A DNA stretch of 64,000 nucleotides from an uncultured Rivularia sp. (GTDB lineage Bacteria; Cyanobacteriota; Cyanobacteriia; Cyanobacteriales; Nostocaceae). The notes below the pieces were generated by a model. It searched no databases, was not told where the DNA came from, and was given only the letters and a program-made list of their open reading frames with translations. The stretch's first letter is position 1. Every line of letters starts with the position of its first letter. The stretch covers positions 1,440,001 through 1,504,000 of the forward strand of contig OY762007.1 in NCBI GenBank assembly GCA_963665115.1, in the 5' to 3' direction. Positions 3,736 to 21,126 of the stretch are shown here, one piece after another. The position numbers and the translations under genes were made by a program.

Positions 3736-6700
3736 TTACTGGTTACTGTTCACTGAAAAAAAGTTATCGTAAAAATCAAACATTTGTGAAACGGCTTCGG
3801 GGATAACTTCGCAGTTATGAGAACGTTTTGCTAAAATTCCGAATTGATTTGATATTGTTGAAGCTGCAATTTCTGGATTAGGAATATATTCGGGTGTGGG
3901 AATATCAAAGGATGGCCCTGCTGTTTTTCCGCGTTTACCCGAAGGTAGGGTCATTAATAGTTCTCCCAAGGGACGCATCATTCCTGTCATAATATCTATG
4001 CTGGCGTTCATTAGTTTGGAGCGTCTTAAGCTTCCTTGGGGATTTGAACCGAAGTGTTGAACCATTAATTGCATCATCAGGAAGTAACTTTGGTTGAATA
4101 TTTCCATCACTGTTCTGGTTTGGGGAACGGTAACAACGTTGGAATTATGGTCTTGATGATTCAAGCTGGGATTACGAACAGATGGGTATGAAGGATTCCA
4201 AGTTCTTTTTTCTCCTTTTTTAGATTGATTAATTTGTTCTAAAGAAAGAGCGTCTGCTAAATTGCGGAATTTTTGATAATGGGATTTTGCAAATGTTTCT
4301 GTTTCAATTTCGCTTCCTTCTCCATGTTCTACAATTACGTCTACTGCAAATAAGGCGCTTTTAACGTCATACACCTGCATTTGATAATCTGGATGTTGTT
4401 TATTCAAGTTGTCTCGCATGAATAAACGGTGTTCTCCACCAACTTTGTTTTTATCAACTGTAAATAAGTCGGGAATATTTTGTAATCCATCGCGGATTTG
4501 ACCGTACAATTCGCTTAAGGAACCATATGTATGTAACTGTTCCGATATCGGAATAGTTTCGTTTACAAGGTCTTCGTTAAGAAAATCGGGCATTTCCAAC
4601 CGCATAAAATACTGTAGTGATAAAGCATTTAATGGTTCTAAAGCAAAGTCAATATCTATGGGGAATTTGGCGTTGAGTTGTTTGAAATCGGGAACTGCTG
4701 GATAAAATGGTTCGGCGATCGCCATCAATATATTGTTAACTAAAAGAAAATGAATCATTTCTTCGCGGGCAATTTCCATTAATACTCCCCGCATTCCATA
4801 ATTATCAACTTCTTTGTTATCACCACAAGCTAAATGTAATTGTTCTTGCGTCCATAATCCCCGACGAACGTATTCTTCCCCAGTGACGTAGTTGGGAACC
4901 GAATATCCGGCGTAGATATATTGCAGCATCACGGCAACTTCTAATTCTGCTGCTTGTTTTAATGCTGTGATTAATTCTTCTTTGGTTTTAATTTGATATT
5001 TAGTTTGCTCTGGTTGTTTCTGTTCCGATGGCGGAATATAACCAATTTGCTGTTGATTTTGCAGAAATTTGAGTAAAAGTTGTGATTTAGCTTCGGACAT
5101 ATCTCTTGTGGGGGGCATATAGTAAGTTTTGCTTTTATTTTTGGGGTCGGACATCTGCCACATTAAGCGAGCGTAGGTAGCAACTTTGCATTTATCTGCC
5201 AAGCTAAAAACTTCGGCTTTCATAAACGAGAAGCTGGCTTCGTAGAAAGATAATATATGTTCGTAAATTAAATTAAAATCAACATCTTGTTGCGGAATTT
5301 TATCTAAGTGCCAATCATCACCCATGACTCTTACAGCTAAGAAGCCGGAACTGTTCCAAAATCCCAGTTTATTATCGTTGTCGTAAGCAATTTCCGCTTC
5401 ATCTAAGTTATCGTAGCCACAAGCAATCTCGTTTAAGGAATTAGAAATTAATATTTTGCAAGTTCCGGCTTTGGCTCCTTTTAAAGTAAACCAACCTCTT
5501 CCTTGTTTATTGGTGGAAATTTCGCAACTTGAATTAAATTCTCCTTTATCTAAAAGTTTTCCAGGTTTTAAGCCAACGATTTGAATTTCTGAGCTATGAG
5601 GATAATGAAAAGTTTTATCTGTATTATTACTATCCCTTTCAAATTGATATCGTAATTGAGGAAAAGCTCTAGGATTATAAAATTGATTTACATATATTGA
5701 CTGTACCGATGTCGGAACACCTCTAACAAAAGAGCGCACTTCTAATTCAACAGCGTTATCTTCTCCTTTATCAAGGTTGGGAAATTCGACAAATAAACAA
5801 GCGTCATCAACTTGAAGATTAATTTCCTTCTCTTTTACTAAAACTCTTCTTTCACCATCAACGGTTCCGATAATACACAAACCTTGATTTTCAACGTCAG
5901 AACGTAAATCTTGCCAATTTTTAGAGGGGTAAAAAGGAATATCTACCAAACCGCTAGTTAACTGATGAGCTTGCTTGTTGTATGCTTCTGAAGGGATTTT
6001 TCCGATTAATCTATGACTGTTAACGGTACGAATTTCTAAATCACCTAAATTCAACTTTGAAAAAATCTTGTGAAATCCAGCTTTAGATTCAGGCGATCGC
6101 CCTACATTAGGAATCGCTGTAATCATATTTAAGCTTATCCCCTGAGAATTTAACTTCAACGTCAGATTCCCGATTGCTTTATATTCCGATTCGGGAATTA
6201 ATAACCTTCCACTGGGATAAGTTTTCAATTCCGAAAGACACCATAAACCAATAGTTCCATGTAATTCCCAGAAACTTGGTGCATCAGGTTGAACTGGTGC
6301 AGACATATTGCTGATACTAAACTGCACCACCAAACCCAAAACGTCTTCTCGCTGCATCGCTTCCTTTAACAAAGCAACCGTGGGAGAAATATTTACCTCA
6401 TCATTCCAGAGAAAATCTTCAGCATCCTTGGAAATAGCAAACTGATAAACAGCAGCTTTGCCAAACTCATCATTTAAAATATGGTCTGGTAAATCGCGAA
6501 TATAATCAAAATCTTGCCAGCGAGCTAACTGATAACCTTGTATCGGGGCAGTTACCATATAAGGAACTTGATTGGAATCACCCAACCTACCAAAAGCTAA
6601 CTGACCTAACATAATCGTATTAGTCCAATTAGAAGCCGGGGTCGCATTCAAATATCCTGGCACGATTGACGCTGGTTTTTACATACTCGTTATAATGACC

Positions 6701-7054
6701 CCAAAAATCAACGCTTCTGCCAATAACCGGGTCATTTAAATTAACTTTGCCAAACTCTGTTTGAGTACTAGTAATTTTGGCATCAATTGAAAAATGACCG
6801 TTACCACCGAAATTCCAACCCATTGCTTTACTAAAAGGGCCATTTTCATCTAATTTCCCTTCAGCATTAAATTTTGGGCCTTGATTATAAAGATATTCGT
6901 GATATTCCGAAGCCGAATGATTTTCTTTATAAGGAAGACCATTCATATAACAGGTATTGTCGCTGATGTCGATTAAACCGTTTTTATATCCCGTAGGGGC
7001 ATGAATGCGGGCTAAACCTTGGAAATGTAAGCGAGGGAAATCTAAAACGCTCAT
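3736..7054 (-). CDS. VioB/RebD/StaD-family (indole-pyruvate imine dimer / chromopyrrolate synthase-like) enzyme with C-terminal ferritin-like domain; +1 frameshift at ~6638-6641
   Basis: N-terminus MSVLDFPRLHFQG...WGHYNEYVKTSVNRAR matches VioB; YYMPPTRDMS, AAELEVAVMLQYIYAGYS, IAREEMIH and EHGEG...SHY ferritin-like motifs; deleting one C joins the 141-aa and 975-aa ORFs (ECDPASNWTN). Confidence 0.88.
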
Positions 7055-7255: not shown

Positions 7256-8371
7256 ATGCTCCGACGTACTCGCAAGAAGTCAAGTGCTTCTTCATCTAAC
7301 TTAAAATGGTCGTCAAAAACTGAGTTAGTTGGCTTAGAATTTGAGTTATCGCCAGAAAAAGATGGTTATCTTTTCCCACAGTACACTATTGGACTCCATG
7401 CTTGGTTTTTGGATCAAGTACGGCAAGTGGACGCAGAATTTTCTACTTATCTCCATAATGGAGAGTCAGAAAAACCTTTTACCGTCTCTGCTTTCAATGG
7501 AGAAATGATTAGTAGCGGTAGACAAATTCAAGTATTTGCGAATAATAAATATCGCTGGTATCTCACTGCTTTATCTCAACCACTACAGCAATGGATGGCA
7601 GAATGGGTAAAAAAAATGCCTTCTACGATTGATTTACGGACTGTAAGTTTTAAAATTAATGCTTGTAATATTGTTCATGCTCCCACAACTTATGCTCAGT
7701 TGTTAAAGTCGGAAGATAATAAAAATATCACTTTAAAATTTATCAGCCCTACTAGTTTTCGTCGCAAAGGACATCATTTTCCCCTACCATTACCTACGAA
7801 TATTTTTCATAGCTATCTGCGACGCTGGAATAATTTTTCTGGGATTACTTTTGAGCAAGATGATTTTTTGGCTTGGGTGGATGAATGTGTATTGGTAAAT
7901 CGCTGTCAAATCTCAACCGATAAAGTATTGGCAGGTAAAAAAGGAGCGGTGACGGGATTCACTGGTGCAATTGAATTGAGTTTAACTAGAGAAGCAGCCA
8001 AACAACCACAATATCAACAATTATTCTACGCTCTAGGAAAACTCGCACCCTATTGCGGAACCGGACATAAAACCACCTTTGGATTGGGGCAAACCCGGTT
8101 AGGATGGACATCAAAAGTTGTACAAGATATACCCGAAGTAGAAAACCTACTAGCTAAACGCATCGAAGATTTAACAGAAACTTTCAAAGCACAACGCAAG
8201 CGCACCGGGGGAAACAGAGCTAGCGAAATTGCTTCAAAATGGGCGACAATTTTAGCAAGACGAGAAATGGGAGATTCTTTACAAGCAATTGCCCAAGATT
8301 TAGAGATGCCTTACGAAACCGTGAAAACTTATGCTAAGTTAGCGCGACGGGAGTTGAAAAAGCTGGAGTAG
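7256..8371 (+). CDS. cas6: CRISPR endoribonuclease Cas6 with C-terminal helical/HTH extension
   Basis: LHNGESEKPFTVS, KFISPTSFRRKG, G-rich loop YCGTGHKTTFGLG; ~85-aa tail containing GDSLQAIAQDLEMPYETVKTY (HTH-like). Confidence 0.93.
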   Translation: MLRRTRKKSSASSSNLKWSSKTELVGLEFELSPEKDGYLFPQYTIGLHAWFLDQVRQVDAEFSTYLHNGESEKPFTVSAFNGEMISSGRQIQVFANNKYRWYLTALSQPLQQWMAEWVKKMPSTIDLRTVSFKINACNIVHAPTTYAQLLKSEDNKNITLKFISPTSFRRKGHHFPLPLPTNIFHSYLRRWNNFSGITFEQDDFLAWVDECVLVNRCQISTDKVLAGKKGAVTGFTGAIELSLTREAAKQPQYQQLFYALGKLAPYCGTGHKTTFGLGQTRLGWTSKVVQDIPEVENLLAKRIEDLTETFKAQRKRTGGNRASEIASKWATILARREMGDSLQAIAQDLEMPYETVKTYAKLARRELKKLE

Positions 8372-8668: not shown

Positions 8669-9210
8669 GTTTTAATTCCTTTACCCCTCACGGGGATGGA
8701 AACACCTGTTAAGGTCTGACTATTTGTATTATACGCAATATGTTTTAATTCTTTAACCCCTCACGGGGATGGAAACTTTTTTGCAAAGATATCTCTTAAG
8801 ATTATCTCCAATATTAGTTTTAATTCCTTTACCCCTCACGGGGATGGAAACGTACCCGAACGTCAACATTGAAGTCAGAGTAGTAAAAAGTTTTAATTCC
8901 TTTACCCCTCACGGGGATGGAAACGTGCTAAGATTAGGATCACGAACGTAGGTTTTTTTGTTTTAATTCCTTTACCCCTCACGGGGATGGAAACAAGAAA
9001 ACCCTCTCTGAACTTCCCTCTGGAAATTTCTGAGTTTTAATTCCTTTACCCCTCACGGGGATGGAAACCTTCCGTGATATCATTTAGCTTCTGAGTCAGT
9101 CTGGTTTTAATTCCTTTACCCCTCACGGGGATGGAAACGCTAGCTCACCAAACAAAACTGACATTTCAGCTTTATGTTTTAATTTCTTAACCCCTCACGG
9201 GGATTGAAAG
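8669..9210 (+). CRISPR. CRISPR array 1: 8 repeats / 7 spacers, repeat GTTTTAATTCCTTTACCCCTCACGGGGATGGAAAC (35 nt)
   Basis: Repeats start at 8669, 8742, 8817, 8890, 8960, 9034, 9104 and 9176 (last one degenerate); spacers 35-40 nt. Confidence 0.98.
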
Positions 9211-9318: not shown

Positions 9319-10128
9319 ATGGATTTACTAACTTCAATTGATATATCTCACGTTTGGGATATAGTTATCGCTCAAACTCCAACCCCAACTCCAACACCTT
9401 CACCAACATTAAATCCTGCGAAAGCTGCGAATGAAATTGAATTACTCAAAAGTCAATTAGAGTTTTTAAAAGCAACTAACGGACAATTAGGTCAAAGCTT
9501 CACTCGATTTGTTAGTGCGATGCAGTTTACTTTAGTTGCATTTGGTTTTTTGGGTGCATTTTTAACTTATATTTTTGGTAAAAATTTAGAAGACGCAAAG
9601 AAAGTTGCTAGCCAGACAATTCAACAAGAAATTGATAGCCATATTGCTGGTTTAGTACAAAAAGAAGTTAGAAATGTAAAACGAACGTTATCACGCGAAC
9701 GAGTTATTAGTTCAACTGTAGTAGATTATTATCTACCATCACCAGAAGGAGAAACAAATGAATATAAGTTACTGCAAGCAAGAGAATTCCAAGATGTAAT
9801 GTTTTGGAATAACATCAATCTTCCCCAGAGATTTACTGGTGATGTATGTGTTTTAGATTTAGAAAATTCAATTGACTCTAATAATCAAAAGTTTTCTCAA
9901 TTACCACAAGATAAACGAGAAGAAACTGCTAAACAAATTTTTGATGGATTTATTAAAATGTTGCCGTCAACCAAGACGATAGTGATTTATGTTGCTCCAC
10001 CAGCACTGAGAGCAATTAATAGTGAAAGATTTAAGGGTATATATTATGCACCTGCAAATACACCAATTACTTTAGTGGGTATGGTGGCTGATGCTGCTTA
10101 TGTAGCAAACGGACAAATTGCTCCGTAA
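9319..10128 (+). CDS. CRISPR-associated single-pass membrane protein with C-terminal alpha/beta domain (candidate type III effector)
   Basis: PT-rich linker, coiled coil, TM segment (FTLVAFGFLGAFLTYIFG), helical stalk, then DVCVLDL / TIVIYV / YYAPANTPITL strands; lies between array 1 and the end of the cas operon. Confidence 0.65.
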   Translation: MDLLTSIDISHVWDIVIAQTPTPTPTPSPTLNPAKAANEIELLKSQLEFLKATNGQLGQSFTRFVSAMQFTLVAFGFLGAFLTYIFGKNLEDAKKVASQTIQQEIDSHIAGLVQKEVRNVKRTLSRERVISSTVVDYYLPSPEGETNEYKLLQAREFQDVMFWNNINLPQRFTGDVCVLDLENSIDSNNQKFSQLPQDKREETAKQIFDGFIKMLPSTKTIVIYVAPPALRAINSERFKGIYYAPANTPITLVGMVADAAYVANGQIAP

Positions 10129-10163: not shown

Positions 10164-10820
10164 TTACTTATGTCTTATATATTTTACTTTTTTCGGAACT
10201 CCATTTTCAGTTTCAGTTATTTTGACGATTACTTGTTGTCCGAGTTCAAGTAATTGAGATTTTTTCGGTTCTTTAACAGTTTTTGTAAAAGTATTAAACA
10301 TTTTATAGGTAACTTTATTCCCACTTTTATTAGTAATCTCGGCTTCTATTTCATCATCAAGTTTTAAATCTTGAGATTTAGCGGCTGTTTGAATTTCTAG
10401 TTTACGATTTAATGCTGATAATTCTTCAAAATCTTCTAAAGGAGTAACTTTAAAGTAGTTAAATAAACGAAATGTCCAACCCAATATTTCTAATATTTGA
10501 TCGGGATTTGATTGGAATTCGATGAGATGCTGATTGCAAGCTTTATGGATACTACGATAGTAACTGGGTGTTTTTTCGCTATGTTTAATGCTTTGGCTGT
10601 TATCAACTAATGCTTTTAAATATTTAAAAAAACTTGTACCAGCTTCAGATTTATTCCGATTTATCGCAGCACGTAAATAAGCTACAATTTTTCCTAATTC
10701 AGAGCGAATTCCATCTTTATTCGCTTCAATATTTTGCTGTTCTTGAACTAGTATTTTCGCAATTTCGTGAGCAGTATTCCACATTTTATCTTCTGAGCAA
10801 GATCCTTTGACTTCCACCAT
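10164..10820 (-). CDS. Last gene of cas operon: Cas11/Cmr5-like helical domain plus putative OB/S1-like C-terminal domain
   Basis: 15 bp after the preceding RAMP; helical N-domain ending ILEILGWTFRLF; beta-rich basic tail (IEAEITNKSGNKVTYK...LGQQVIVKI). Confidence 0.55.
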   Translation of the reverse strand: MVEVKGSCSEDKMWNTAHEIAKILVQEQQNIEANKDGIRSELGKIVAYLRAAINRNKSEAGTSFFKYLKALVDNSQSIKHSEKTPSYYRSIHKACNQHLIEFQSNPDQILEILGWTFRLFNYFKVTPLEDFEELSALNRKLEIQTAAKSQDLKLDDEIEAEITNKSGNKVTYKMFNTFTKTVKEPKKSQLLELGQQVIVKITETENGVPKKVKYIRHK

Positions 10821-10835
10821 TTATTTTCCTCTAAT

Positions 10836-11918
10836 TTAGTTGTTAATTCTTAGTATTGCTGTTAATTCCTGTAGCTGCTGAGTTTGTATTAATGGTCTGT
10901 TACCCGGTTTAATCGGTTTTTTTAATTGATTATTATTTGTTGTTACTGGGGTTTGAGGTTTAGCGGATTGGATAGCATCTAATATAAACTGTTTTAATGT
11001 ATTTTCTTCTAAAACCGAATTGTTTGGATTATAGGATAAGTAACGATTAATTTCTAACTGTTCTATTTTAACTATATCAATTTTCATAGTTCCCATTCCT
11101 ACAGCTTTACCGCTACCAATTTTTAATCCCAGTCGGTTTTCTGGATCTTGTCCGAGAGCAATTAATAATGCTCCTAATTGCATTTTTGTTAGGTTGCTAT
11201 AATTCACATAAGTTGTAAATCTTTTTCCTAATTCTGCTTGTTGAATACGAATTGTAGGTGTGACTTCTTCATCTTCTTGGTAGGAATGAGGATAAAACTT
11301 TCTACCGCGAATTTTGTTATTGTTATCGTAATAAATTTTTTCCTGAGTTTCACGATTTTCAGCTTTAGGTTTAGGAGAAAATAAAGCAGGAATCAATCCT
11401 GTATCGAAACCTGATTTATCGTTATCGGGGTCATATTTCGCATCATAAAAATGTACTAATCCCAGCCAATTCATTGCTCCAAATATGACGCAAGCCGGAC
11501 AAAGTTCTGATGTATCTTTACATTCACTGTAATTATTAGGAATCTCTTCTCTTCTGGCATCAGTTTTGCACAAACAACTTCTTGTAATTGCTTCATAAAT
11601 TGAACGTACAACCCCCTTGAGCGAACTACCGGGAATAATAAGTCTGTGGTTTTGCTGTACGGAAGATTGAATTAAGCTTAATTTAGCGACATATCTTGCT
11701 GAAACAGTATCTATTTGCTGTGCTAAATCGCTACCCATGACGGTAATACCTGAATTTACGGATACAGGTGAAACAACTGTTAAATTCAAATATAATTTAC
11801 CGCTAAAACGTTTATTAGTTAGTTGATATTTATTGTGACCAAACTTTTGATTACCTTGAATGTTTATTCTGTCAGGTGCTGTTTGAGGAAGAGAAATAAA
11901 ATTATAGTTACTAGGCAT
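10836..11918 (-). CDS. Type III-D Cas7-family RAMP (Csm5-like)
   Basis: IIPGSSLKGVVRSIYEAIT, Cys cluster CLC...CPACVIFG, RGRKFYPH, G-loop KIGSGKAVGMG. Confidence 0.88.
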   Translation of the reverse strand: MPSNYNFISLPQTAPDRINIQGNQKFGHNKYQLTNKRFSGKLYLNLTVVSPVSVNSGITVMGSDLAQQIDTVSARYVAKLSLIQSSVQQNHRLIIPGSSLKGVVRSIYEAITRSCLCKTDARREEIPNNYSECKDTSELCPACVIFGAMNWLGLVHFYDAKYDPDNDKSGFDTGLIPALFSPKPKAENRETQEKIYYDNNNKIRGRKFYPHSYQEDEEVTPTIRIQQAELGKRFTTYVNYSNLTKMQLGALLIALGQDPENRLGLKIGSGKAVGMGTMKIDIVKIEQLEINRYLSYNPNNSVLEENTLKQFILDAIQSAKPQTPVTTNNNQLKKPIKPGNRPLIQTQQLQELTAILRINN

Positions 11919-11953
11919 ATTTTTTGAGATTTTTTTAAATTAAAGTTCACAAA

Positions 11954-12418
11954 TTACTTGTTTATAGTTAGAGCGACAAAATGCACTGTTGAAGTTTGAA
12001 CATCTTGAAAATAACGCTGAGCTAAAGATATTTTTTTCGGCTCTATATTATCTTGAGATTCATTTTTGTAAGTAAACCCTTGAGGGAATTTAGTTTCATC
12101 AATATCATAAAAATATGCATTGCGATCGCAAGTTTTCCAATGTTTACCAATAGAGTTAAATTCTAATTCCTTATTTGGCTGATTTTGACTGAGCAACAAC
12201 ACTTGATACCCGCTACTATTTTTTTTCCAGCGTAACTCTAATTCCACGTTAAACATTTGCCCTTCTGCACTAATAAATTCGGGTGGTAAATAAGTTAAAA
12301 TACCACTAACCTTGTGTTTCCAACGCAGAAAATAATAACTGGGTTGCCGATAACAATCTTTGAGTAATGTTTGTAATTTTTCAGAAGATGAAACTTGTTT
12401 ACAACCAACAAAAGTCAT
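11954..12418 (-). CDS. csx19: Type III-D signature protein Csx19
   Basis: ~154 aa, EGQMFNVELELRWKK motif, position between Cas7 genes. Confidence 0.7.
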   Translation of the reverse strand: MTFVGCKQVSSSEKLQTLLKDCYRQPSYYFLRWKHKVSGILTYLPPEFISAEGQMFNVELELRWKKNSSGYQVLLLSQNQPNKELEFNSIGKHWKTCDRNAYFYDIDETKFPQGFTYKNESQDNIEPKKISLAQRYFQDVQTSTVHFVALTINK

Positions 12419-13386
12419 GCACTAACTCCCTGTGGTAAGATATCACGCCATTGACGAACAGCACGCTCAAATAAATCTGGGACACCCCTTTCACTATCAC
12501 CTTCCCAAATAAGCTGTACTCCAAAACCATAAGACATTTCTTCTGCTGTAATTATTGAGTCCTGTTTATCATCAATCGGAAATCCATACAGGTTTTCTTC
12601 TTGTAAAAATTCTCCTGCTCCTAATAAAAACGTTTTTGGCCAATTTAATTCTTTCCCAATGGCGTAGATTTTATCATCTCGCAACTCACAACCAGGATAT
12701 TGCACTACTGCTGAGTGAAGTTGTAGTTTGACTGTACCCATACCGCGAGATTTGGCAAAACCAATACCAAACCAACCGTCATTTAAGTCACGCAATACTA
12801 AACCAATTAAACCCAACTGTGCTAAAGAGAAATTTTTCAGGTGAATTTTTGTGCGAAAATCTCCAGATGTACAAACTTCGTAGTTAAATAATGCACCCCT
12901 GACAGCAGAGCCAAATACTCTATCGATCGCGACTCCATTACGTTCTTCAATTTTCAATGGTTGGGATGGATTGGGATAAGCATCTTCGATACGAAGCCGA
13001 CTAGCTATGATAGTACTGCCAAATAATTGGTCGGTAAACGAAGATTTTTTGTAGATTTCATGGGGAAGTAACTTCTTTTTTAATTCTTCTTGATTTCTAA
13101 TATTTTGCTTATCTAATGGATTACTAGCCCAAATAGTTGTACTATTTTCTGATGGTGGTTTATCATCACCTACAGTTCTGACAATGCGTTCGGCATGAGC
13201 GCGAATTGCCCCTTTAAGCGAACTTCCTGGTAAAAAAATCGAACGTCCACCAGCATGATAAGTTTCCACAAATTCCATATCAGGTTTAGTTGGGTTTGCA
13301 CCTTCTTTTCCCGACTTAATTAAAATTGGCCCATCGGGAATTATGCTGAGTTCAATAGTGCATTGGTTAACTAATCGCTTATGCAT
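12415..13386 (-). CDS. csm3: Cas7-family RAMP (Csm3 group)
   Basis: FLPGSSLKGAIRAHAERI, ERNGVAIDR, GIGFAKSRGMG. Confidence 0.88.
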   Translation of the reverse strand: MHKRLVNQCTIELSIIPDGPILIKSGKEGANPTKPDMEFVETYHAGGRSIFLPGSSLKGAIRAHAERIVRTVGDDKPPSENSTTIWASNPLDKQNIRNQEELKKKLLPHEIYKKSSFTDQLFGSTIIASRLRIEDAYPNPSQPLKIEERNGVAIDRVFGSAVRGALFNYEVCTSGDFRTKIHLKNFSLAQLGLIGLVLRDLNDGWFGIGFAKSRGMGTVKLQLHSAVVQYPGCELRDDKIYAIGKELNWPKTFLLGAGEFLQEENLYGFPIDDKQDSIITAEEMSYGFGVQLIWEGDSERGVPDLFERAVRQWRDILPQGVSA

Positions 13387-13388
13387 GA

Positions 13389-14255
13389 CTAATTTTCTCC
13401 GCTTGTGGTATTAGCTATAGATTTTTCTGGAATTAAACACCTCAAGTACCAAAGTAGAGCTTCAGTCCATTTCTTCTTGAAATCATTAATTTCTTCTCCT
13501 CGATACTGATATTCATCCATATTTCCTGCAACTTGATTTTGCATATATGTTAATAACTTTCCAGAATCACCTTCTGCATCAAACCACTGCATTTGGTCAA
13601 TTTCCAAACGCACAACTCCTAAACCACGAGAACGCCCACCTCCGAGCGGTATCTGTTCGCTTTCAAACTGATGTAAACCAATCGCCAACAAACCTAGTTC
13701 CCACTTTTCGGCATTTTCTACTACTACTTTCATATCAAAACTAGTACCAGAAGGAACTACCTGAAAATCATATAGTTTTCCATCTGCTGCTGTTTCAGTA
13801 TCCCTATCAATTGCAACACCATCTCGTTCTTGATATTGTCCAAACCATGTATCGGCAACTACGGTTAAATCCCGCACTTGAAATTTACTAGCAAACCAAG
13901 GAGAACCGAATAAACGAGAAATTGAATCAGTTTGCTCTAATAATTGATCTGTTAAAACAGCATCATCTTGATAATCTTCCTTTAACTTTTTTATTGCTTG
14001 GTTACGAGCTTGACTGGTAAAATTAGCTGGATCTTCTGCTAAATTGATATTAATCCCCCGCAAAAAACTTTCAAGACGCGATCGCAATGCACCTTTGAAG
14101 CTGGCACCAGGAATTAATGGTCTATCTAATGCATCTTTTATTACAGGTAAATCGGCTCCAATTGGTTCGGTAGAACGACCGGAACTAATACGTAATGCGG
14201 TGACTGTAGAAAGTTTTCCAGTTATTTCTAAACGATTTTTAAACACATCAAACAT
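13389..14255 (-). CDS. csm3: Cas7-family RAMP (Csm3/Csx7 backbone subunit)
   Basis: IGADLPV (putative catalytic Asp), LIPGASFKGALRS, RDGVAIDRDT, LGGGRSRGLG. Confidence 0.9.
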   Translation of the reverse strand: MFDVFKNRLEITGKLSTVTALRISSGRSTEPIGADLPVIKDALDRPLIPGASFKGALRSRLESFLRGININLAEDPANFTSQARNQAIKKLKEDYQDDAVLTDQLLEQTDSISRLFGSPWFASKFQVRDLTVVADTWFGQYQERDGVAIDRDTETAADGKLYDFQVVPSGTSFDMKVVVENAEKWELGLLAIGLHQFESEQIPLGGGRSRGLGVVRLEIDQMQWFDAEGDSGKLLTYMQNQVAGNMDEYQYRGEEINDFKKKWTEALLWYLRCLIPEKSIANTTSGEN

Positions 14256-14260
14256 AATTA

Positions 14261-14758
14261 TTATCCGGTTTGATTATTTTCTTCAACATTTTGTAAGTCA
14301 ATACGAGCGTCTATAATAGATGAATCTTTTTCTGTTTTTATTTTGTTGAGATACGTTAAATAGCGAGAACCATAACCAATATAACGACGAATTAACTGTA
14401 TCCAAATATATTTAAAATCCGCACCGGGGTTATCCGTTTCTATTTGTTTAGCTTTAACTTTGATAGAAACATCTATATCCTGAATGATTCGAGCAGCAAG
14501 AGAATCTTTACCTCTTCCCCATTTTTCATCCCTACCAACTTGATAACAAATAAAATTTTTAATCACTTCTGCGCTATCAGTTGTGTCAGCAACGCGGAGT
14601 AAATTATTAAACTGCGATTCCTCTAATTTTTTATTCCCAGATTTAGTATATTTACAATTATCTAAAGCGGTTTCTATTGCAATCACTAAATCATCTTCTG
14701 ATTGACGAATTGCTTGCTGTACTTTTAGCGCAATCTTTGGATCTAATATTTGAGTCAT
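14261..14758 (-). CDS. csm2: Small subunit Cas11 (Csm2-like)
   Basis: All-helical, SQFNNLL...IKNFICYQVGR motif; canonical III-D position after csx10. Confidence 0.78.
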   Translation of the reverse strand: MTQILDPKIALKVQQAIRQSEDDLVIAIETALDNCKYTKSGNKKLEESQFNNLLRVADTTDSAEVIKNFICYQVGRDEKWGRGKDSLAARIIQDIDVSIKVKAKQIETDNPGADFKYIWIQLIRRYIGYGSRYLTYLNKIKTEKDSSIIDARIDLQNVEENNQTG

Positions 14759-16032
14759 TTAGCCTCCTCTCGAAAAACTTGATGAAATTCATTACAAACT
14801 TCCACCTGTCCAAAACCTTCACAAGTGCGATCGCCTATTCCCGTTTTTGATAAATTTTCTAATGCTAAATACCATTTTTCTGGTTGCTTTGTACTAAATA
14901 AGTATACAGAACCTTTATTAGTAACTAATTCCACGTCTTTCATCAATCCCCAAGCGGAATTCCATCCACTACGGTAGTCATAGCTACTGTAAGCAACGTG
15001 CATTTCCAGCGATGAATCGTCAACATTGGTAAAATCTTTGAGCATACACTTTGAAATAACCGTAGTTCGCTGCCAGTTTTCGCTTAAAATAGCATCAGAT
15101 TGTAAATCGATAGTGAAATAAGTTTTACCTGTTAATAAATCATTTTCACATTTACCGAAAATAGACCAAAGTCCCCATCTAGTTTGCAACGTTTGATTAA
15201 ATTCTTCAATTCGATTTTGAATTCTTTTGATTGATGTTTCTTGTCTGCTAACTTCAATTTTGACTTTACCTAAACCCCTAGAAACAGAACCACCTATGCG
15301 AAAGTTATTTTTATTTCTTTGAATAAAATCTTGCAACTTTCCAGCTAAAGATTCATCAGAAACCCGCACAAAACCGCGAAAAACAAAATTATTCCATTCA
15401 TCCGTTTTAGTACTTTTCAAAAAAGACTCATTTAAAACTTGAATGCTGTAAAGAATTTCTTCTTCCGAAGTTGCACGACGGCGATTAATTCCCACCCGCG
15501 TTAAAAAACGGCTACTTGCATCATGACTGTAATAATGACTATCTACTAAGCTATAAAAACTACCGTAAGTTTCCACCTGGGGGTTTGTTCCTTGGGCGAT
15601 CGCTCTTGGATCGCTCGACTCAAAAGGTTGATTATAAGCTGCTGCACAAAAAGCATCAATAAGAGTATCAAAAACTCCATGTCCATTGCTACACTTAAAA
15701 CCCGGATTGGTTTTGGAACTAACAGCAGTTGCTGGTAAAACCTTGATTTGACTACTGACAGCTATCGATTCATCATTGATTTTCCTCACTGCTGGATAAG
15801 CATTGCCAAAAATAGCCGGACTTTCATCTAAAAATAAACTTTGAAAATCACCTCCATTTTCCGCTAGATTTGCAGAATATCGACCGGATAAATGTAAAAT
15901 TTGAGAGGCGATCGCACCCCGCAAAACCGAACCAGAAATATAGTTTTCTACCTCGCTAACGGAAGTACCGGGTTTTAGTTTTCCTAGTGCCAGGGGAGAT
16001 AAAGCTGTAATAGTTAATTCCAGTTGCGTCAT
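14755..16032 (-). CDS. csx10: Csx10 RAMP (type III-D)
   Basis: YISGSVLRGAIA, RVGINRRRATSEE, IGGSVSRGLG and a second G-loop GIGDRTCEGFG; likely start MTQLEL at 16032, overlapping the upstream stop (ATGA). Confidence 0.88.
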   Translation of the reverse strand: MTQLELTITALSPLALGKLKPGTSVSEVENYISGSVLRGAIASQILHLSGRYSANLAENGGDFQSLFLDESPAIFGNAYPAVRKINDESIAVSSQIKVLPATAVSSKTNPGFKCSNGHGVFDTLIDAFCAAAYNQPFESSDPRAIAQGTNPQVETYGSFYSLVDSHYYSHDASSRFLTRVGINRRRATSEEEILYSIQVLNESFLKSTKTDEWNNFVFRGFVRVSDESLAGKLQDFIQRNKNNFRIGGSVSRGLGKVKIEVSRQETSIKRIQNRIEEFNQTLQTRWGLWSIFGKCENDLLTGKTYFTIDLQSDAILSENWQRTTVISKCMLKDFTNVDDSSLEMHVAYSSYDYRSGWNSAWGLMKDVELVTNKGSVYLFSTKQPEKWYLALENLSKTGIGDRTCEGFGQVEVCNEFHQVFREEAK

Positions 16033-16742
16033 GGCTTTACCTCTGGTAATAAACTTAACCAAGCCTCATCGTTTTTCGTAATTTTTGGTAATCCTTTCCA
16101 GCGCAACCAACCCAACCCCGCAGACTTGCTACCACCCAGAGCATGAATATGATGTAAAGCTGCAATTATCAAAGGTTTAGCATAATTTGGGCAGTCTGGT
16201 TGTAGATGAATTTCTCCTTTAAAACTTAGTTGAGCATTTGCGGGAGAAGTTTCTAATAAATATAATTTTTTCTCATCTGCGGTACGTCTTCTGCGGTTAA
16301 TTGTCACCCCCGGACGCAATACTTCTGGTAAATCTACTGAGGCAAAATCACAAATTAGGTCATCAACAATAATTCGTGAAGGTAAAATCGGATTGCCAAA
16401 TATCTGAGAAACCAAACAGTGATATCCTCGATAGCCAGAAACTTGATAAGCTGTTCTAAACTGACTAGAAACTTCCGTTTCTTGAGGGCAAAGTGATTTA
16501 GCTGTGGGTGCAGAAAAGATTTGCCATCCCAAACAACGCGCCAATTTCTCGCATTCATGACGCAATCTGCCTTTAAGTTGAGAAGCTGGAATCAATAGTT
16601 GCCCTTGTGCATTACGCACAATAGGTTTGTCAGCTAAAGAACCACTCGATCCACCTGCACCTACACACAATGCACTATCAATTACAGCATTGAGAATAAT
16701 AGTATCAGTTTCTATTGAAGTAAGGTTATCCAAATCAATCAT
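16029..16742 (-). CDS. csm3: Cas7-family RAMP (Csm3 group)
   Basis: GSLADKPIV, LIPASQLKGRLRH, RPGVTINRRR, LGGSKSAGLG. Confidence 0.9.
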   Translation of the reverse strand: MIDLDNLTSIETDTIILNAVIDSALCVGAGGSSGSLADKPIVRNAQGQLLIPASQLKGRLRHECEKLARCLGWQIFSAPTAKSLCPQETEVSSQFRTAYQVSGYRGYHCLVSQIFGNPILPSRIIVDDLICDFASVDLPEVLRPGVTINRRRRTADEKKLYLLETSPANAQLSFKGEIHLQPDCPNYAKPLIIAALHHIHALGGSKSAGLGWLRWKGLPKITKNDEAWLSLLPEVKP

Positions 16743-19108
16743 TAATTTACCTCCCGTGGAGATGATTCCTCTGCAATAAATTCATCTGCTTCTTCTGGAA
16801 TAAATGGATATAAATCAACTAATTCTCGCCAAATCGTTTCGTAGGTCATTTTCGATTTTTCTGCTTCTTGTGATTCTTCTTGTAAAGACATCCAAGGTGC
16901 TAAATTTCCATGATTAGATGATTCTTTTGGTTGACACCAAGCTAATTCAAATCTTTCCTGTAATTCTTGTCTAGCCAATTCGTTTGTTAAACGAACGCGA
17001 AAATAGCGATAATTAAGGATAGCTGTACGCTTACCTTTTTCCAGTAAACTGCGAATTTGATAAAGTTGCGAACGAGGAAATTTAGCTTTTTTAAAAGCAT
17101 GAGCAGTTTCCAAAAGTCCTCCTAATTCATGTAGAGTATAGGGAGAAGCATAAAGCTTTAATTTGGATTGTCCATCTTTATTCTTAATTAATCCCTGCTC
17201 CCGAAATTCCTTGATATTAGAAGAAATCATCGTTACAGCTTTCATTACTAAAAAATCTACAGTTCCACTATAATATTGATGGTCTTTCTTCAATTCTTTA
17301 GCATATTTTTTCGCAGATTTTAATAATTGACTAACTAATTTATCTGCATAGTATATCGGTGTATCTTGCGCTGTAATTAAAACCCCAGTTGACATACTCA
17401 ACAGACATTTAGAAGCTGGGATATTATCTGTAATGTAACGATGTGTAAATGAATTATATTTCTCTTCTTTTAATGAATAATTTCGAGTTTGTAGTAATAA
17501 CCTTTCAAATTCATCGCCAATCATCTTAGCAATTTCTAAAGCCTTGTCAGCCGGTACAACTAAGAGTACATCATCACCACCAATAGTAATAATTTCAAAA
17601 GGATGAATTAAAACGGATTCTTTTTTCCTTCTGCTAGATTTAGCATCAGGTGTATATTTAGAAGGATGTAAATAACTTGCTAAAGCTTTGTAAACAGATT
17701 TCTCGGTAGCATTAAAAATATCTTGACTAAAAAGTCGATAGCTCTGGGATGTTTTAATCTTTTGACGAATATAGCCACCCATATTATTACCATCAGCATA
17801 GATATAAGCAACAAATCCTGATGGATTACTTGAGGAAGCAATTTCTCTTAAAGAGCGTGCTTCTTCTACTTTGTCTTTCTCACTAACACCAACAGAGCTA
17901 TAATATCGATTTGCTAATTCTTGGTTCCCTTCTTCTTCAAGAAACTTCTTAAACTTATCTACCCAACTAGGAATCCAAATATCACCAGGTTTCCATTCCA
18001 AACCAGCATTGTTATACCATGCATGAGAACTTTCCCGTTTAGCAACCTCTCCTACTAAACGTTTTCGCGCTAAAGGCTCCGATAAAAAGCGAGTATTTGG
18101 CAACTCTGCCGTCATGATTGCACAACGGCGATCGCTTTCATCTCGTCGTAGATAAGGATGAGTTTCAAACATCGGTGGGTAGCAACGACTGGGACGATTT
18201 TCAACAGAATTACCGTTCTGACGAGGAGTGAATTCGTTATTTTCAACAGAATTACCATTCCGACGACGGGTGAATTCGTTAGCCAATTTTCCCACCAATT
18301 CATTAAAATTCTTACGGTTGTGAAACCTTTGCAAAGGATTGCTAACTTCCGACTGCTCGAAATAACTTTTAACTATGGGATTTTCTTGATTTTTCTCATA
18401 CTTATCAAACCAAAAAGTATCTTCAATATTGTCTTGCAATAATCCAAATCGAAATTCCAACAACCGGAAAGTATCGCCAACCGCACAGGAATTTGCTGTT
18501 AAAGTTTCATCGGTATAGCGTTTTTCAATTGCATTCGCCAAATCATCAACAAAAGCTGCCGGACAAAATGCGAGAATATTACCACCTGTAGAGTAGACGA
18601 TCAATTCCGGAATTAAAGCTTGTCTTAGATTTAGATTAGGAAAATTTCTATCCAACCACTGCTCAATTGTAATTGACTTCTGACCTTCACCAAAAAAAGC
18701 AGGTAAATCAACCAAATTTATTCTATCGAGAAGCGCAGAAGCACCGCGTATATCATGGAGTTTAGCAGCTTCAAACACATATTGTTTAATCTTTGTCGCA
18801 CCACCATAAACCAAACCGATAGGTGTATCTTCATCCCAAAGATTTGGATATTTATCTTTTAATTGTAAAAGTGTCTGAGGTTGATATTCTTCACCAATAT
18901 CATAAAGTTGCTCTGCCAGCTTTACAAAACGTTGCACCTCATCAGGTAAAACCTGCTTTTCACCCTCACTTGCGCTTGTAGGAGCTAATAATACCTGTCG
19001 CATTTTCTTCAATTCACTGAGTTCATCCTGAACCAAAGTGTGCTTTTTGCCCCAAGCGAGACACCAAGCAAAAGCAGTGATTGTGCGCGTGCGAGAGTCG
19101 TTTGTCAT
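16742..19108 (-). CDS. cas10: Cas10 (type III-D large subunit), cyclase palm intact, no HD domain evident
   Basis: IKQYVFEAAKLHDIRGASALL, YADGNNMG, IITIGGDDVLL; only ~95 aa before palm 1, with no HD motif there. Confidence 0.95.
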   Translation of the reverse strand: MTNDSRTRTITAFAWCLAWGKKHTLVQDELSELKKMRQVLLAPTSASEGEKQVLPDEVQRFVKLAEQLYDIGEEYQPQTLLQLKDKYPNLWDEDTPIGLVYGGATKIKQYVFEAAKLHDIRGASALLDRINLVDLPAFFGEGQKSITIEQWLDRNFPNLNLRQALIPELIVYSTGGNILAFCPAAFVDDLANAIEKRYTDETLTANSCAVGDTFRLLEFRFGLLQDNIEDTFWFDKYEKNQENPIVKSYFEQSEVSNPLQRFHNRKNFNELVGKLANEFTRRRNGNSVENNEFTPRQNGNSVENRPSRCYPPMFETHPYLRRDESDRRCAIMTAELPNTRFLSEPLARKRLVGEVAKRESSHAWYNNAGLEWKPGDIWIPSWVDKFKKFLEEEGNQELANRYYSSVGVSEKDKVEEARSLREIASSSNPSGFVAYIYADGNNMGGYIRQKIKTSQSYRLFSQDIFNATEKSVYKALASYLHPSKYTPDAKSSRRKKESVLIHPFEIITIGGDDVLLVVPADKALEIAKMIGDEFERLLLQTRNYSLKEEKYNSFTHRYITDNIPASKCLLSMSTGVLITAQDTPIYYADKLVSQLLKSAKKYAKELKKDHQYYSGTVDFLVMKAVTMISSNIKEFREQGLIKNKDGQSKLKLYASPYTLHELGGLLETAHAFKKAKFPRSQLYQIRSLLEKGKRTAILNYRYFRVRLTNELARQELQERFELAWCQPKESSNHGNLAPWMSLQEESQEAEKSKMTYETIWRELVDLYPFIPEEADEFIAEESSPREVN

Positions 19109-19318: not shown

Positions 19319-20143
19319 GTTTTCATCCCCGTGAGGGGTTAAAGAATTAAAACTAATGCTCGATCAAGGTGGAACAGCTTCTGTTGCTGAGTTTCCATCC
19401 CCGTGAGGGGCTAAGGAATTAAAACCATGTCTGCTTTCCCCGGAGCGAAAGATGCTGGACAGTTTCCATCCCCGTGAGGGGTTAAAGAATTAAAACCAGA
19501 TTTGTAAGAATACATCAAAATAGCGAGGGAAAAGTTTCCATCCCCGTGAGGGGTTAAAGAATTAAAATAAAGAGTTGGAGGAATAGGAATTATCCTTGCT
19601 TCAGTTTCCATCCCCGTGAGGGGTTAAAGAATTAAAACCTTTTCTCCGGCTCTTGCTGGTAGCAATGGGATTAAGTTTCCATCCCCGTGAGGGGTTAAAG
19701 AATTAAAACACCTAGTGGAAAATATGGCAGTGGAACTCGCTAATTTGTTTCCATCCCCGTGAGGGGTTAAAGAATTAAAACGACTTGATTGACTTTCGCC
19801 CCATCGCTTGCAAGATGTTTCCATCCCCGTGAGGGGTTAAAGAATTAAAACACGAATATCTGGAACTGGAGCACACGTTGTGCATTCAGTGGTTTCCATC
19901 CCCGTGAGGGGTTAAAGAATTAAAACCAGTTTATTTTAGATATTTTTTCTGGATGTGGTAAAGATTGTTTCCATCCCCGTGAGGGGTTAAAGAATTAAAA
20001 CCGTTGATTGGGATTGCGATAAGAATGGAACTTTCTCGTTTCCATCCCCGTGAGGGGTTAAAGAATTAAAACAAGTTACAAGTAATAAATTCGCTATATT
20101 TGCGGATCGTTTCCATCCCCGTGAGGGGTTAAAGAATTAAAAC
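19319..20143 (-). CRISPR. CRISPR array 2: 12 repeats / 11 spacers, repeat GTTTTAATTCTTTAACCCCTCACGGGGATGGAAAC
   Basis: Reverse-complement repeats start at 19319, 19391, 19462, 19534, 19604, 19675, 19747, 19817, 19892, 19967, 20038 and 20109. Confidence 0.98.
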
Positions 20144-20412
20144 CCTACCTATTTAGAACCCTTACTATAACTGGATTCCAAGGTGCCATTTTAGCGGGGG
20201 GTCTAATTTAACTACCAATAAACCGAAGTTATCGATAAAAACTAACCCAAACACCAGCTTCAAAGCACCATGCAATAGTCAATTAGCGGGGGGTAACGGA
20301 AGAATCATTGTTATGGCGATCGCCCTACCCCCGCTAAAATCTTACGTATACTCTGTCAAAACAAACACTGCTGTTTTGAATTGGAAACGTATAATTAAGT
20401 TGTCAAGGTTCT
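20144..20412 (-). promoter_or_regulatory. CRISPR leader 2
   Basis: Inverted homolog of leader 1 (e.g. CCGCTAAAATGGCACCTTGGAATCCAGTTATAGTAAGGGTTCT is shared). Confidence 0.85.
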
Positions 20413-20515
20413 GTAATTTCCTTGATAGAGTATAACAAAAAACTCTAAAATTTTTACAGCAAAATAACAAATTTAAGATTATATTTTTTTACCATACCCA
20501 ATGCCCCATGCCACA

Positions 20516-20659
20516 TCTTTTGGTATGGGTTTGCAGTTGCTTAGGGGAGATAATTTCCGCGCTCGTCTTGATTGGGGTATTCCTTTAGTATCGGTAAATT
20601 CAAGGAAGAGGACATGCCAAGAAAACGGTATTTATTTTACGTTGCAGTACAATCCTTAT
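20516..20659 (+). pseudogene. C-terminal remnant of a TpsB (ShlB/FhaC) transporter
   Basis: SFGMGLQL...RARLDWGIPLV...QENGIYFTLQYNP aligns with the C-terminus of the intact TpsB at 46551-48275 (SLGLGLQW...RADYGIPLV...QENGFNFSVRYQPF). Confidence 0.75.
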
Positions 20660-20731
20660 TTGTTAAAGTTATTGGCATATCAGATGTTGACAGTTCTACC
20701 GTTAGTCGCATAACCACTGAAAGTAGAGATA

Positions 20732-20986
20732 GAAACCAGCGATGGTGATTCCGGGGATATCAAAATTGCCACACCAGAATTAACTATAAAAGATGGTGCA
20801 AATATTGCAGTTAATAGCCTAAGCAGAGGAATTGGTGGGAATATTGAACTAGAAACAGATGCTTTAAACCTTGATAATGGCTTGATAGATGCGACAACTC
20901 GCAGCACTACAGGTGGCAATATTAATGTTGAAGCAGATGATATTCTTACCATGCGTCGAGATAGTCAAATATCCACCCCGGAATAA
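20732..20986 (+). pseudogene. Internal remnant of a TpsA/filamentous-haemagglutinin-like gene
   Basis: Translates to GDSGDIKIATPELTIKDGANIAVNS...LNLDNGLIDATTRSTTGGNINVEADDILTMRRDSQIST, like the late repeats of the TpsA genes in this window; no start. Confidence 0.75.
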
Positions 20987-21126
20987 TAATACTAATCGCA
21001 GAAATAATTTTATCACTACTTTAGCCTGTCAAGAGCGTTAGAATCAACGTTCAGCAAACAAAAGGTAAAAAATTATATCTTGTAGATTCTCAACAAATTT
21101 AGCTTAATACAATATTTTGAGAATGT

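What the first reader, a model, noticed from the sequence alone, without database searches (positions are those of the whole stretch)
9319..10128. Only candidate effector of an HD-less, cyclase-intact III-D system is an uncharacterised single-TM protein
Seen: Cas10 keeps GGDD but lacks HD, and no CARF/SAVED, Csx1, Csm6, NucC or ring-nuclease gene is in the locus. The one non-core gene between the arrays encodes coiled coil, TM, helical stalk and a small Rossmann/REC-like alpha/beta domain ending YAPANTPITL. Established: type III systems use membrane effectors activated by Cas10 second messengers (Cam1, Csx23, CorA), and TM plus Rossmannoid architectures (Cam2, NARF domain) have been proposed. 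Inference: this is a cOA-gated oligomeric membrane-depolarising effector with a non-CARF sensor.
Basis: partly seen in the sequence, partly recalled or inferred. Interest (0 to 1): 0.75.

Follow-up and report, generated by a model that had tools for sequence, protein, structure and literature searches.

The report
Cam2-type membrane partner of CRISPR III-D
This gene encodes a small membrane protein of an already catalogued but untested family found beside type III CRISPR systems in cyanobacteria; it stands where sister systems carry known alarm-triggered nucleases, so it likely senses the CRISPR alarm molecule and damages the cell membrane.

Summary
The gene is real (269 aa: coiled coil, one membrane helix, helical stalk, receiver-like domain). 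Cas10 keeps GGDD and lacks an HD domain, and the locus has no CARF, SAVED or NucC gene. But the family is catalogued: it matches the PADLOC models Mem_02 (E 5e-93) and C3a55 (E 1e-83) over its full length. It very likely belongs to Cam2 (Hoikkala 2024), a proposed but untested effector. 'Only candidate' holds for the locus, not the genome: a second type III-B locus about 235 kb away encodes CARF-TM, CARF-RelE and Csx3. Added here: the Cas10 proteins of 17 distinct III-D loci carrying this gene group on one side of a well-supported branch, and none of these loci has a CARF gene or Csx3 in cis; 16 of 20 sister loci without the gene carry a CARF effector. The domain keeps an invariant Asp at the phospho-acceptor position but lacks the other receiver catalytic residues. 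Best reading (0.6): a cyclic-oligoadenylate-gated membrane effector, more likely cA3 than cA4. Binding, oligomer and toxicity are untested. The scan reported this family before on other genomes.

The parts
9319..10128 (+). Mem_02/C3a55-family (Cam2-type) single-pass membrane protein, 269 aa
   Evidence: ORF; PADLOC PDLC01156 E 5e-93 and PDLC01054 E 1e-83, residues 1-266; 120 homologs
9430..9504 (+). Conserved heptad-like helix (residues 38-62, ELLKSQLEFL motif), predicted outside the cytoplasm
   Evidence: L43 and Q46 invariant in 86 aligned homologs; helix in model; charge bias and signal peptides in relatives
9508..9576 (+). Single predicted transmembrane helix (about residues 64-86)
   Evidence: Kyte-Doolittle peak 1.86; 111 of 120 homologs have one such peak
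9586..9711 (+). Helical stalk (residues 90-131) ending in conserved R122, R126, E127
   Evidence: model; conservation
9712..10119 (+). Receiver (REC)/flavodoxin-like alpha/beta domain (residues 132-267)
9856..9858 (+). D180, invariant Asp at the position of the REC phospho-acceptor
   Evidence: 93 of 93 diverse homologs; aligned to the REC 'LLD' Asp
7256..8371 (+). cas6 with C-terminal HTH
8669..9210 (+). CRISPR array 1: 8 repeats of 35 nt, last one degenerate, ending 108 bp before the gene
10164..10820 (-). csx21, convergent with the membrane gene (35 bp apart)
   Evidence: PADLOC E 2e-69
10836..16742 (-). Type III-D core genes: cas7-insertion, csx19, two cas7, cas11, csx10, cas7
16742..19108 (-). 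cas10, 788 aa, palm motifs intact (DGN, GGDD), no HD domain
19319..20143 (-). CRISPR array 2: 12 repeats

Best explanation
The gene encodes a single-pass membrane protein of the catalogued type III accessory family Mem_02/C3a55, very likely part of Cam2, and it likely acts as the resident effector of this HD-less type III-D system. Shown: the family, the architecture, the CRISPR linkage and the mutual exclusion with CARF effectors in this Cas10 group. Inferred: when the III-D complex binds target RNA, Cas10 makes cyclic oligoadenylate. The messenger would bind the cytoplasmic receiver-like domains of an oligomer (probably a trimer with cA3, about 55%; cA4 about 30%; other about 15%). The stalk would pass the change to the membrane helices, which an outside coiled coil would hold together. 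The membrane would then leak and the infected cell would stop growing.
For: Full-length match to two models built from type III accessory genes (Shah 2018 Table 2 row for cluster 55, subtypes B and D). Linkage: 9 of 10 true matches in an even sample of 401 genomes lie beside type III operons of subtypes A, B and D; 25 of 31 loci in the seeded set. Replacement: the Cas10s of 18 loci with the gene (17 distinct) fall on one side of a branch with SH-aLRT 99. None has a CARF gene or Csx3 in cis, whereas 16 of 20 sister III-D loci without the gene carry a CARF effector and 13 of 20 carry Csx3. In 5 of 18 such genomes none of five CARF models nor SAVED matched anywhere. cA3 hint: relatives share loci with CHAT-SAVED (L025, L054, L062) or TIR-SAVED (L055). 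Remote kin: the short relative C3a59 hits PADLOC 'Effector, 1TM' PDLC00664 at E 5e-6; 4 of 93 members weakly hit Pfam NARF; Atlas neighbours at 0.86 and 0.84 carry NARF in 30-31% of members (a lead only). Topology puts the sensor domain in the cytoplasm: more K+R after than before the TM in 71 of 93.
Against: No experiment on this family was found in the paper library. The 17 loci are one Cas10 lineage, so the exclusion is about one evolutionary event, not 17, and the tree is a quick one without bootstrap. Palm motifs are the same in both Cas10 groups, so nothing shows a different messenger. This genome has CARF-TM, CARF-RelE and Csx3 in a III-B locus whose cas10 break looks like an assembly error, so signalling in trans could explain the empty III-D locus; 13 of 18 such genomes have a CARF or SAVED match elsewhere. 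6 of 31 seeded loci and 1 of 10 sampled ones have no cas gene nearby. 4 of 20 sister loci have neither this gene nor a CARF gene in the 20 kb fetched. The TM helix is plainly hydrophobic, with no conserved polar face. The five CARF-free genomes are drafts of unreported completeness. The fold match is generic: non-REC flavodoxin-like folds tie with REC.
Confidence: 0.6

Rival explanations
1. The III-D complex signals in trans to the CARF effectors of the III-B locus (Cam1-like and Cami1-like), and the membrane gene is a passenger or a minor helper.
For: CARF-TM (E 1e-119), CARF-RelE (E 1.5e-150) and Csx3-AAA lie at G000 1.684-1.694 Mb. PMC11229360 section 23 reports effector-less loci to be 2.57 times more likely in genomes with several type III loci. 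Palm motifs equal those of CARF-using sister loci.
Against: The gene stays next to csx21 in 18 of 31 seeded loci and recurs beside III-A and III-B operons. Five of 18 genomes have no match to six effector models. The two readings are not exclusive.
Confidence: 0.15
2. It is a non-lethal accessory: a membrane tether or partner for the effector complex, Csx21 or the short relative C3a59, not a ligand-gated disruptor.
For: The Shmakov preprint proposes membrane anchoring for type III membrane proteins without a recognisable soluble domain (passages). C3a59 lies at the other end of the same operon in L005, L019, L022, L023, L029 and L061/L062. The TM helix has no polar face.
Against: An anchor would not be expected to replace CARF genes or to serve three subtypes. 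C3a59 is not found in this genome. The conserved residues include charged and aromatic ones in the soluble part (E127, Y137, R155, D180, Y224, N247).
Confidence: 0.15
3. It is an atypical phospho-receiver: D180 is modified by a kinase or small phosphodonor and links CRISPR to two-component signalling.
For: D180 is invariant (93 of 93) and aligns with the REC phospho-acceptor. One frameshifted copy (L033) lies beside histidine-kinase genes.
Against: The acidic pair after beta1, the Thr/Ser after beta4 and the Lys after beta5 are replaced by YYLP, Y-V and A-N. There is no kinase in this locus, and only 1 of 31 seeded loci showed one next to the gene among the neighbours annotated.
Confidence: 0.07

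Closest known systems
Cam2 (CRISPR-associated membrane protein 2; Hoikkala, Graham and White 2024, PMC11229360; prediction only)
   Different: The supplement lists no Cam2 sequences, so the match is indirect. A second TM-REC family (C3a59) can sit in the same loci and also fits the description. None of the 35 NucC loci listed is cyanobacterial by species name, so their Cam2 set is probably wider than this family.
C3a55 (Shah 2018, PMC6546367, cluster 55, example Nos7107_2836) and PADLOC Mem_02
   Same: [quoted passage not shown]
   Different: The label 'ABC permease' is not supported: one TM, no Pfam or NCBIfam match. The label '2TM' fits only a minority; 11 of 280 members show two hydrophobic peaks, most of them an N-terminal signal-peptide-like segment.
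C3a59 / Pfam NARF (PF20299) / PADLOC 'Effector, 1TM' PDLC00664
   Same: TM helix plus REC-like domain (model and fold search); shared C-terminal Y-x-x-x-N-T-P-I-x-L stretch.
   Different: Sequence link is weak (profile probability 36-43%; P0263 hits C3a59 at E 0.003); our protein has no NARF hit at E 0.1. That PDLC00664 is a CBASS model is recalled, not shown by a call; it matched none of 401 genomes sampled.
Cam1, Csx23, Cap1, CorA (tested membrane effectors of type III systems)
   Same: Membrane helix coupled to a cytoplasmic sensor; the proposed outcome is depolarisation (PMC11229360 passages; PMC12642688 abstract).
   Different: Cam1 and Cap1 use CARF or CARF-like sensors and cA4, and CorA uses SAM-AMP; no model of such families matches this protein, and the sensor here is REC-like.

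Membership tests
Mem_02 / C3a55 | Full-length match to the family HMMs | tested here: met
   E 5e-93 and 1e-83 over residues 1-266
Mem_02 / C3a55 | Encoded beside a type III operon | tested here: met
   35 bp from csx21 of a complete III-D operon
Cam2 | N-terminal transmembrane helical region | tested here: met
Cam2 | C-terminal domain structurally like REC | tested here: met
Cam2 | Type III locus with cyclase-positive Cas10 and no histidine kinase | tested here: met
Cam2 | Match to the authors' Cam2 HMM or listed sequences | tested here: inconclusive
   No Cam2 sheet in the supplement. Indirect support from family members in both cyanobacterial SAVED-CHAT strains, one with an accession two numbers from the SAVED-CHAT protein
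Cam2 | Trimer | not tested
Cam2 | Binds cA3 and disrupts the membrane (predicted by the authors) | not testable with these tools
   Needs experiment
Canonical receiver domain | Phospho-acceptor Asp at the end of beta3 | tested here: met
   D180, 93 of 93
Canonical receiver domain | Acidic pair after beta1, Thr/Ser after beta4, Lys after beta5 (motifs from established knowledge) | tested here: not met
   Replaced by YYLP, Y224-V225 and A246-N247; register rests on a 72%-probability profile alignment
Pfam NARF (PF20299) | Score above the 25-bit cut-off | tested here: not met
   No hit for the query at E 0.1; 4 of 93 relatives hit weakly, best E 0.0013
CARF-TM effectors (Cam1) | CARF domain by HMM | tested here: not met
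   No CARF model hit, while the same library finds the genome's CARF-TM at E 1e-119
CARF-TM effectors (Cam1) | CARF fold by structure | tested here: inconclusive
   No row named CARF among the 50 shown; absence from the list does not exclude it

The most novel reading that the evidence does not exclude
A receiver fold has been repurposed as a cA3 sensor that gates a single-pass, N-out oligomer, with the old phospho-acceptor Asp contacting or even cutting the ring (which would explain why these loci need no Csx3). This genome would then run two separate alarm channels: III-D through cA3 to this protein, and III-B through cA4 to its Cam1- and Cami1-like effectors. The same sensor lineage would be shared with 1TM effectors of other nucleotide-signalling defence systems.
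Probability: 0.25. Interest if true: 0.7.

Novelty: new member of a known kind. Interest (0 to 1): 0.33.

Why it matters
Many cyclase-positive type III loci have no known effector, and Cam2 was named a priority for study in 2024; I found no test of it in the paper library. If the reading holds, the receiver fold joins CARF and SAVED as a cyclic-nucleotide sensor. This locus is a compact test case: intact operon, no HD nuclease, one swappable gene. The comparison with sister loci gives the missing control, because nearly the same III-D machine is paired either with this gene or with CARF nucleases. The gene itself is one more member of a family listed since 2018, so the finding is not surprising to a specialist.

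Tried and rejected
Pfam and NCBIfam gave no meaningful hit for the protein, nor did a sequence search of the PDB with a 93-member profile. Foldseek on the whole model was uninformative, dominated by long helices. No match in the phage collection. No RNA holder was listed, which says nothing on expression. The promoter and terminator scan was at chance level. An apparent CHAT-REC fusion (P0284) looked like domain shuffling but is an in-frame 1,307-bp deletion with 11 bp of microhomology between neighbouring CHAT-SAVED and family genes; rejected as evidence. P0035 carries an XisH-like N-terminal piece and was not followed. Cas10 columns separating the two groups are few and none lies in the palm motifs shown (the R448 column is an alignment effect), so no messenger signature was found; passages of PMC11734703 give determinants for cA6 versus cA3/cA4 only. 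SAVED and NucC searches of this genome were empty; the SAVED model did ring in a positive control later, the NucC model had no positive control. PDLC00664 matched none of 401 genomes, and C3a59 had no real plasmid hit, so I could not show a CBASS context myself. 'NARF' searches of the library found no relevant paper, and a recalled 2020 paper from the Aravind group was not held. One match in the phylum scan (G072, E 2e-6, partial, in a 707-aa frame) was dropped as spurious before counting. L024 and L048 have identical Cas10 and were counted once. The three plasmid hits were not added to the counts.

Full report
Observation. The ORF at 9319-10128 (+) is as described. It starts 108 bp after the last, degenerate repeat of array 1 and ends 35 bp from the stop of the convergent csx21. 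The minus-strand operon is a complete type III-D set: cas10, cas7, csx10, cas11, two cas7, csx19, cas7-insertion, csx21; cas6-HTH lies upstream of array 1. Cas10 has DGN (439) and GGDD (510). It has no HD domain: a weak Pfam HD_5 score (E 0.02) covers residues 25-94, which hold no HD pair, and the only HD lies in the palm region and varies in relatives. Contigs from three runs of one study cover the locus without indels (possibly the assembly's own source).

Family. Pfam and NCBIfam give nothing, but PADLOC gives full-length hits to Mem_02 (E 5e-93) and C3a55 (E 1e-83). [quoted passage not shown] There are 120 homologs in the word-based search (named ones are cyanobacteria) and 130 at the 50% level. 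The family matched 11 of 401 sampled genomes of the phylum, this one included and one match spurious.

Relation to Cam2. Hoikkala 2024 (PMC11229360; abstract, passages, sections 11, 18 and 23, supplement parts 1, 9 and 10 and one supplement search) describes Cam2 as TM plus REC-like domain in 26 loci, next to SAVED-CHAT in 2, predicted to be a cA3-binding trimer and untested. No Cam2 sequences are listed. The three SAVED-CHAT loci are Haliangium, Tolypothrix PCC 7910 (WP_167721486.1) and Calothrix PCC 7716 (438 aa). Both cyanobacteria encode this family, 32% identical to our protein over its length; the Tolypothrix member is WP_167721488.1, two numbers from the SAVED-CHAT accession, which suggests a neighbouring gene. 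In L062 a 438-aa CHAT-SAVED gene is directly followed by a near-identical copy of the Calothrix member. I put membership in Cam2 at about 80%. The doubt is that a shorter TM-REC family, C3a59, sits in the same L062 locus and fits the description too.

Neighbourhoods. Of 31 seeded loci, 18 have the gene next to csx21, 7 more have other cas genes or arrays, and 6 have none within the fetched flanks; 4 of 5 such orphan genomes tested still hold a Cas10 elsewhere. In the even sample, 9 of 10 true matches flank type III operons: 2 III-D, 6 III-B, 1 III-A. Two plasmid records inspected also place the gene at the end of III-B operons (not counted). CHAT-SAVED or TIR-SAVED genes share the locus in L025, L054, L055 and L062.

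Replacement of CARF effectors. Csx10 of this III-D type passed its cut-off in 37 of 401 genomes, and the membrane gene lies beside it in only 3. I fetched 20 of the other loci, picked by hand for a strong Csx10 score and enough flank. Of these, 13 have a CARF-RelE-like gene inside the operon and 3 more have other CARF genes; 13 have Csx3; all 20 have csx21. None of the 18 loci with the membrane gene has a CARF gene or Csx3 in the fetched stretch (only part of the unannotated neighbours was scanned). Those stretches reach only about 1 kb beyond cas10, so I also searched the genomes: every CARF and Csx3 match lies on another contig or far from the III-D cas10. Their Cas10s fall on one side of a branch with SH-aLRT 99 in a quick, midpoint-drawn tree, so this is about one event. 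In G408, G410, G412, G413 and G420 none of five CARF models nor SAVED matched (5 of 18; drafts). The palm motifs do not differ between the groups.

Against 'only candidate'. This genome has a second Cas10 in a III-B locus with CARF-TM, CARF-RelE, Csx3-AAA, cas1, cas2 and WYL. Its cas10 is split in the assembly, but all three runs lack one base at the frame switch, and one at the cmr3 end, so the system is probably intact. If the III-D complex makes cA4, those effectors could respond in trans, as PMC11229360 section 23 suggests for effector-less loci. Homology searches found no other CARF, SAVED or Cas10-type signalling genes in the genome beyond a CARF-TM fragment.

Mechanism and verdict. The most likely working is target RNA, then cyclic oligoadenylate, then binding at the cytoplasmic pseudo-receiver domains of an oligomer, then membrane leak and arrest (0.6). 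Family, architecture, linkage and exclusion are shown; ligand, oligomer and membrane effect are inferred, by analogy with Cam1, Csx23 and Cap1 (PMC12642688, abstract only). Rivals are signalling in trans (0.15), a non-lethal anchor (0.15; idea from bioRxiv 10.1101/270033, passages) and a phospho-receiver (0.07). Library searches found no experimental study of Cam2; subscription papers are mostly not held. Earlier notes of this scan on other genomes reach the same reading; I saw them after the analysis above and count them as no evidence. Verdict: a real gene and a new member of a catalogued, untested family; interest 0.33.

Noticed in passing
G000:C1:1683674-1693747 (L035:11674-19938, L036:755-1747): Second type III system (III-B, short Cas10) with CARF-TM, CARF-RelE and Csx3-AAA. 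The breaks in cas10 and cmr3 appear to be single extra bases in the assembly.
   Followed up: yes
L036:2210-5439: Beside that III-B locus, an operon with a ThiF/E1-like gene (397 aa), a 161-aa gene without a PADLOC hit, a small protein matching a 'CorA-like' model and a NYN nuclease; further on a reverse-transcriptase-like ORF next to cas1 and cas2.
   Followed up: partly
L005, L019, L022:20023-20646, L023:19626-20237, L029:20109-20642, L061, L062: The short TM-receiver-like family C3a59 brackets the same operons from the other end; it is not found in this genome.
   Followed up: partly
L061:8001-8942: In-frame deletion fusing a CHAT domain to the receiver-like domain; either an assembly artefact or a real loss of both neighbouring genes.
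   Followed up: yes
window 10164-10820: Csx21 is present in all 38 III-D loci examined, so it behaves like a core subunit of this subtype; its function is unknown.
   Followed up: partly
G000 around position 1 and 8693003-8693923: A type I-D cas10d runs across the start of the contig, with cas1 at 5887; this III-D locus has no cas1 or cas2 of its own.
   Followed up: no
window 3736-7054: A 975-aa and a 141-aa ORF on the minus strand that overlap and may be one frameshifted gene; it resembles VioB-like ferritin-domain proteins (from recall, not tested).
   Followed up: no
window 20300-21000: Degraded fragment on the plus strand, with stops, resembling a filamentous-haemagglutinin-like cyanobacterial protein (by eye).
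   Followed up: no
L010, L021, L034: Loci that keep cas1, cas2, cas6, arrays and the membrane gene (truncated in L034) but have lost the III-D interference operon.
   Followed up: no
L076, L079, L080, L081: Sister III-D loci with neither the membrane gene nor a CARF gene in 20 kb; three of them carry a conserved 206-215-aa PD-DExK gene inside the operon.
   Followed up: no
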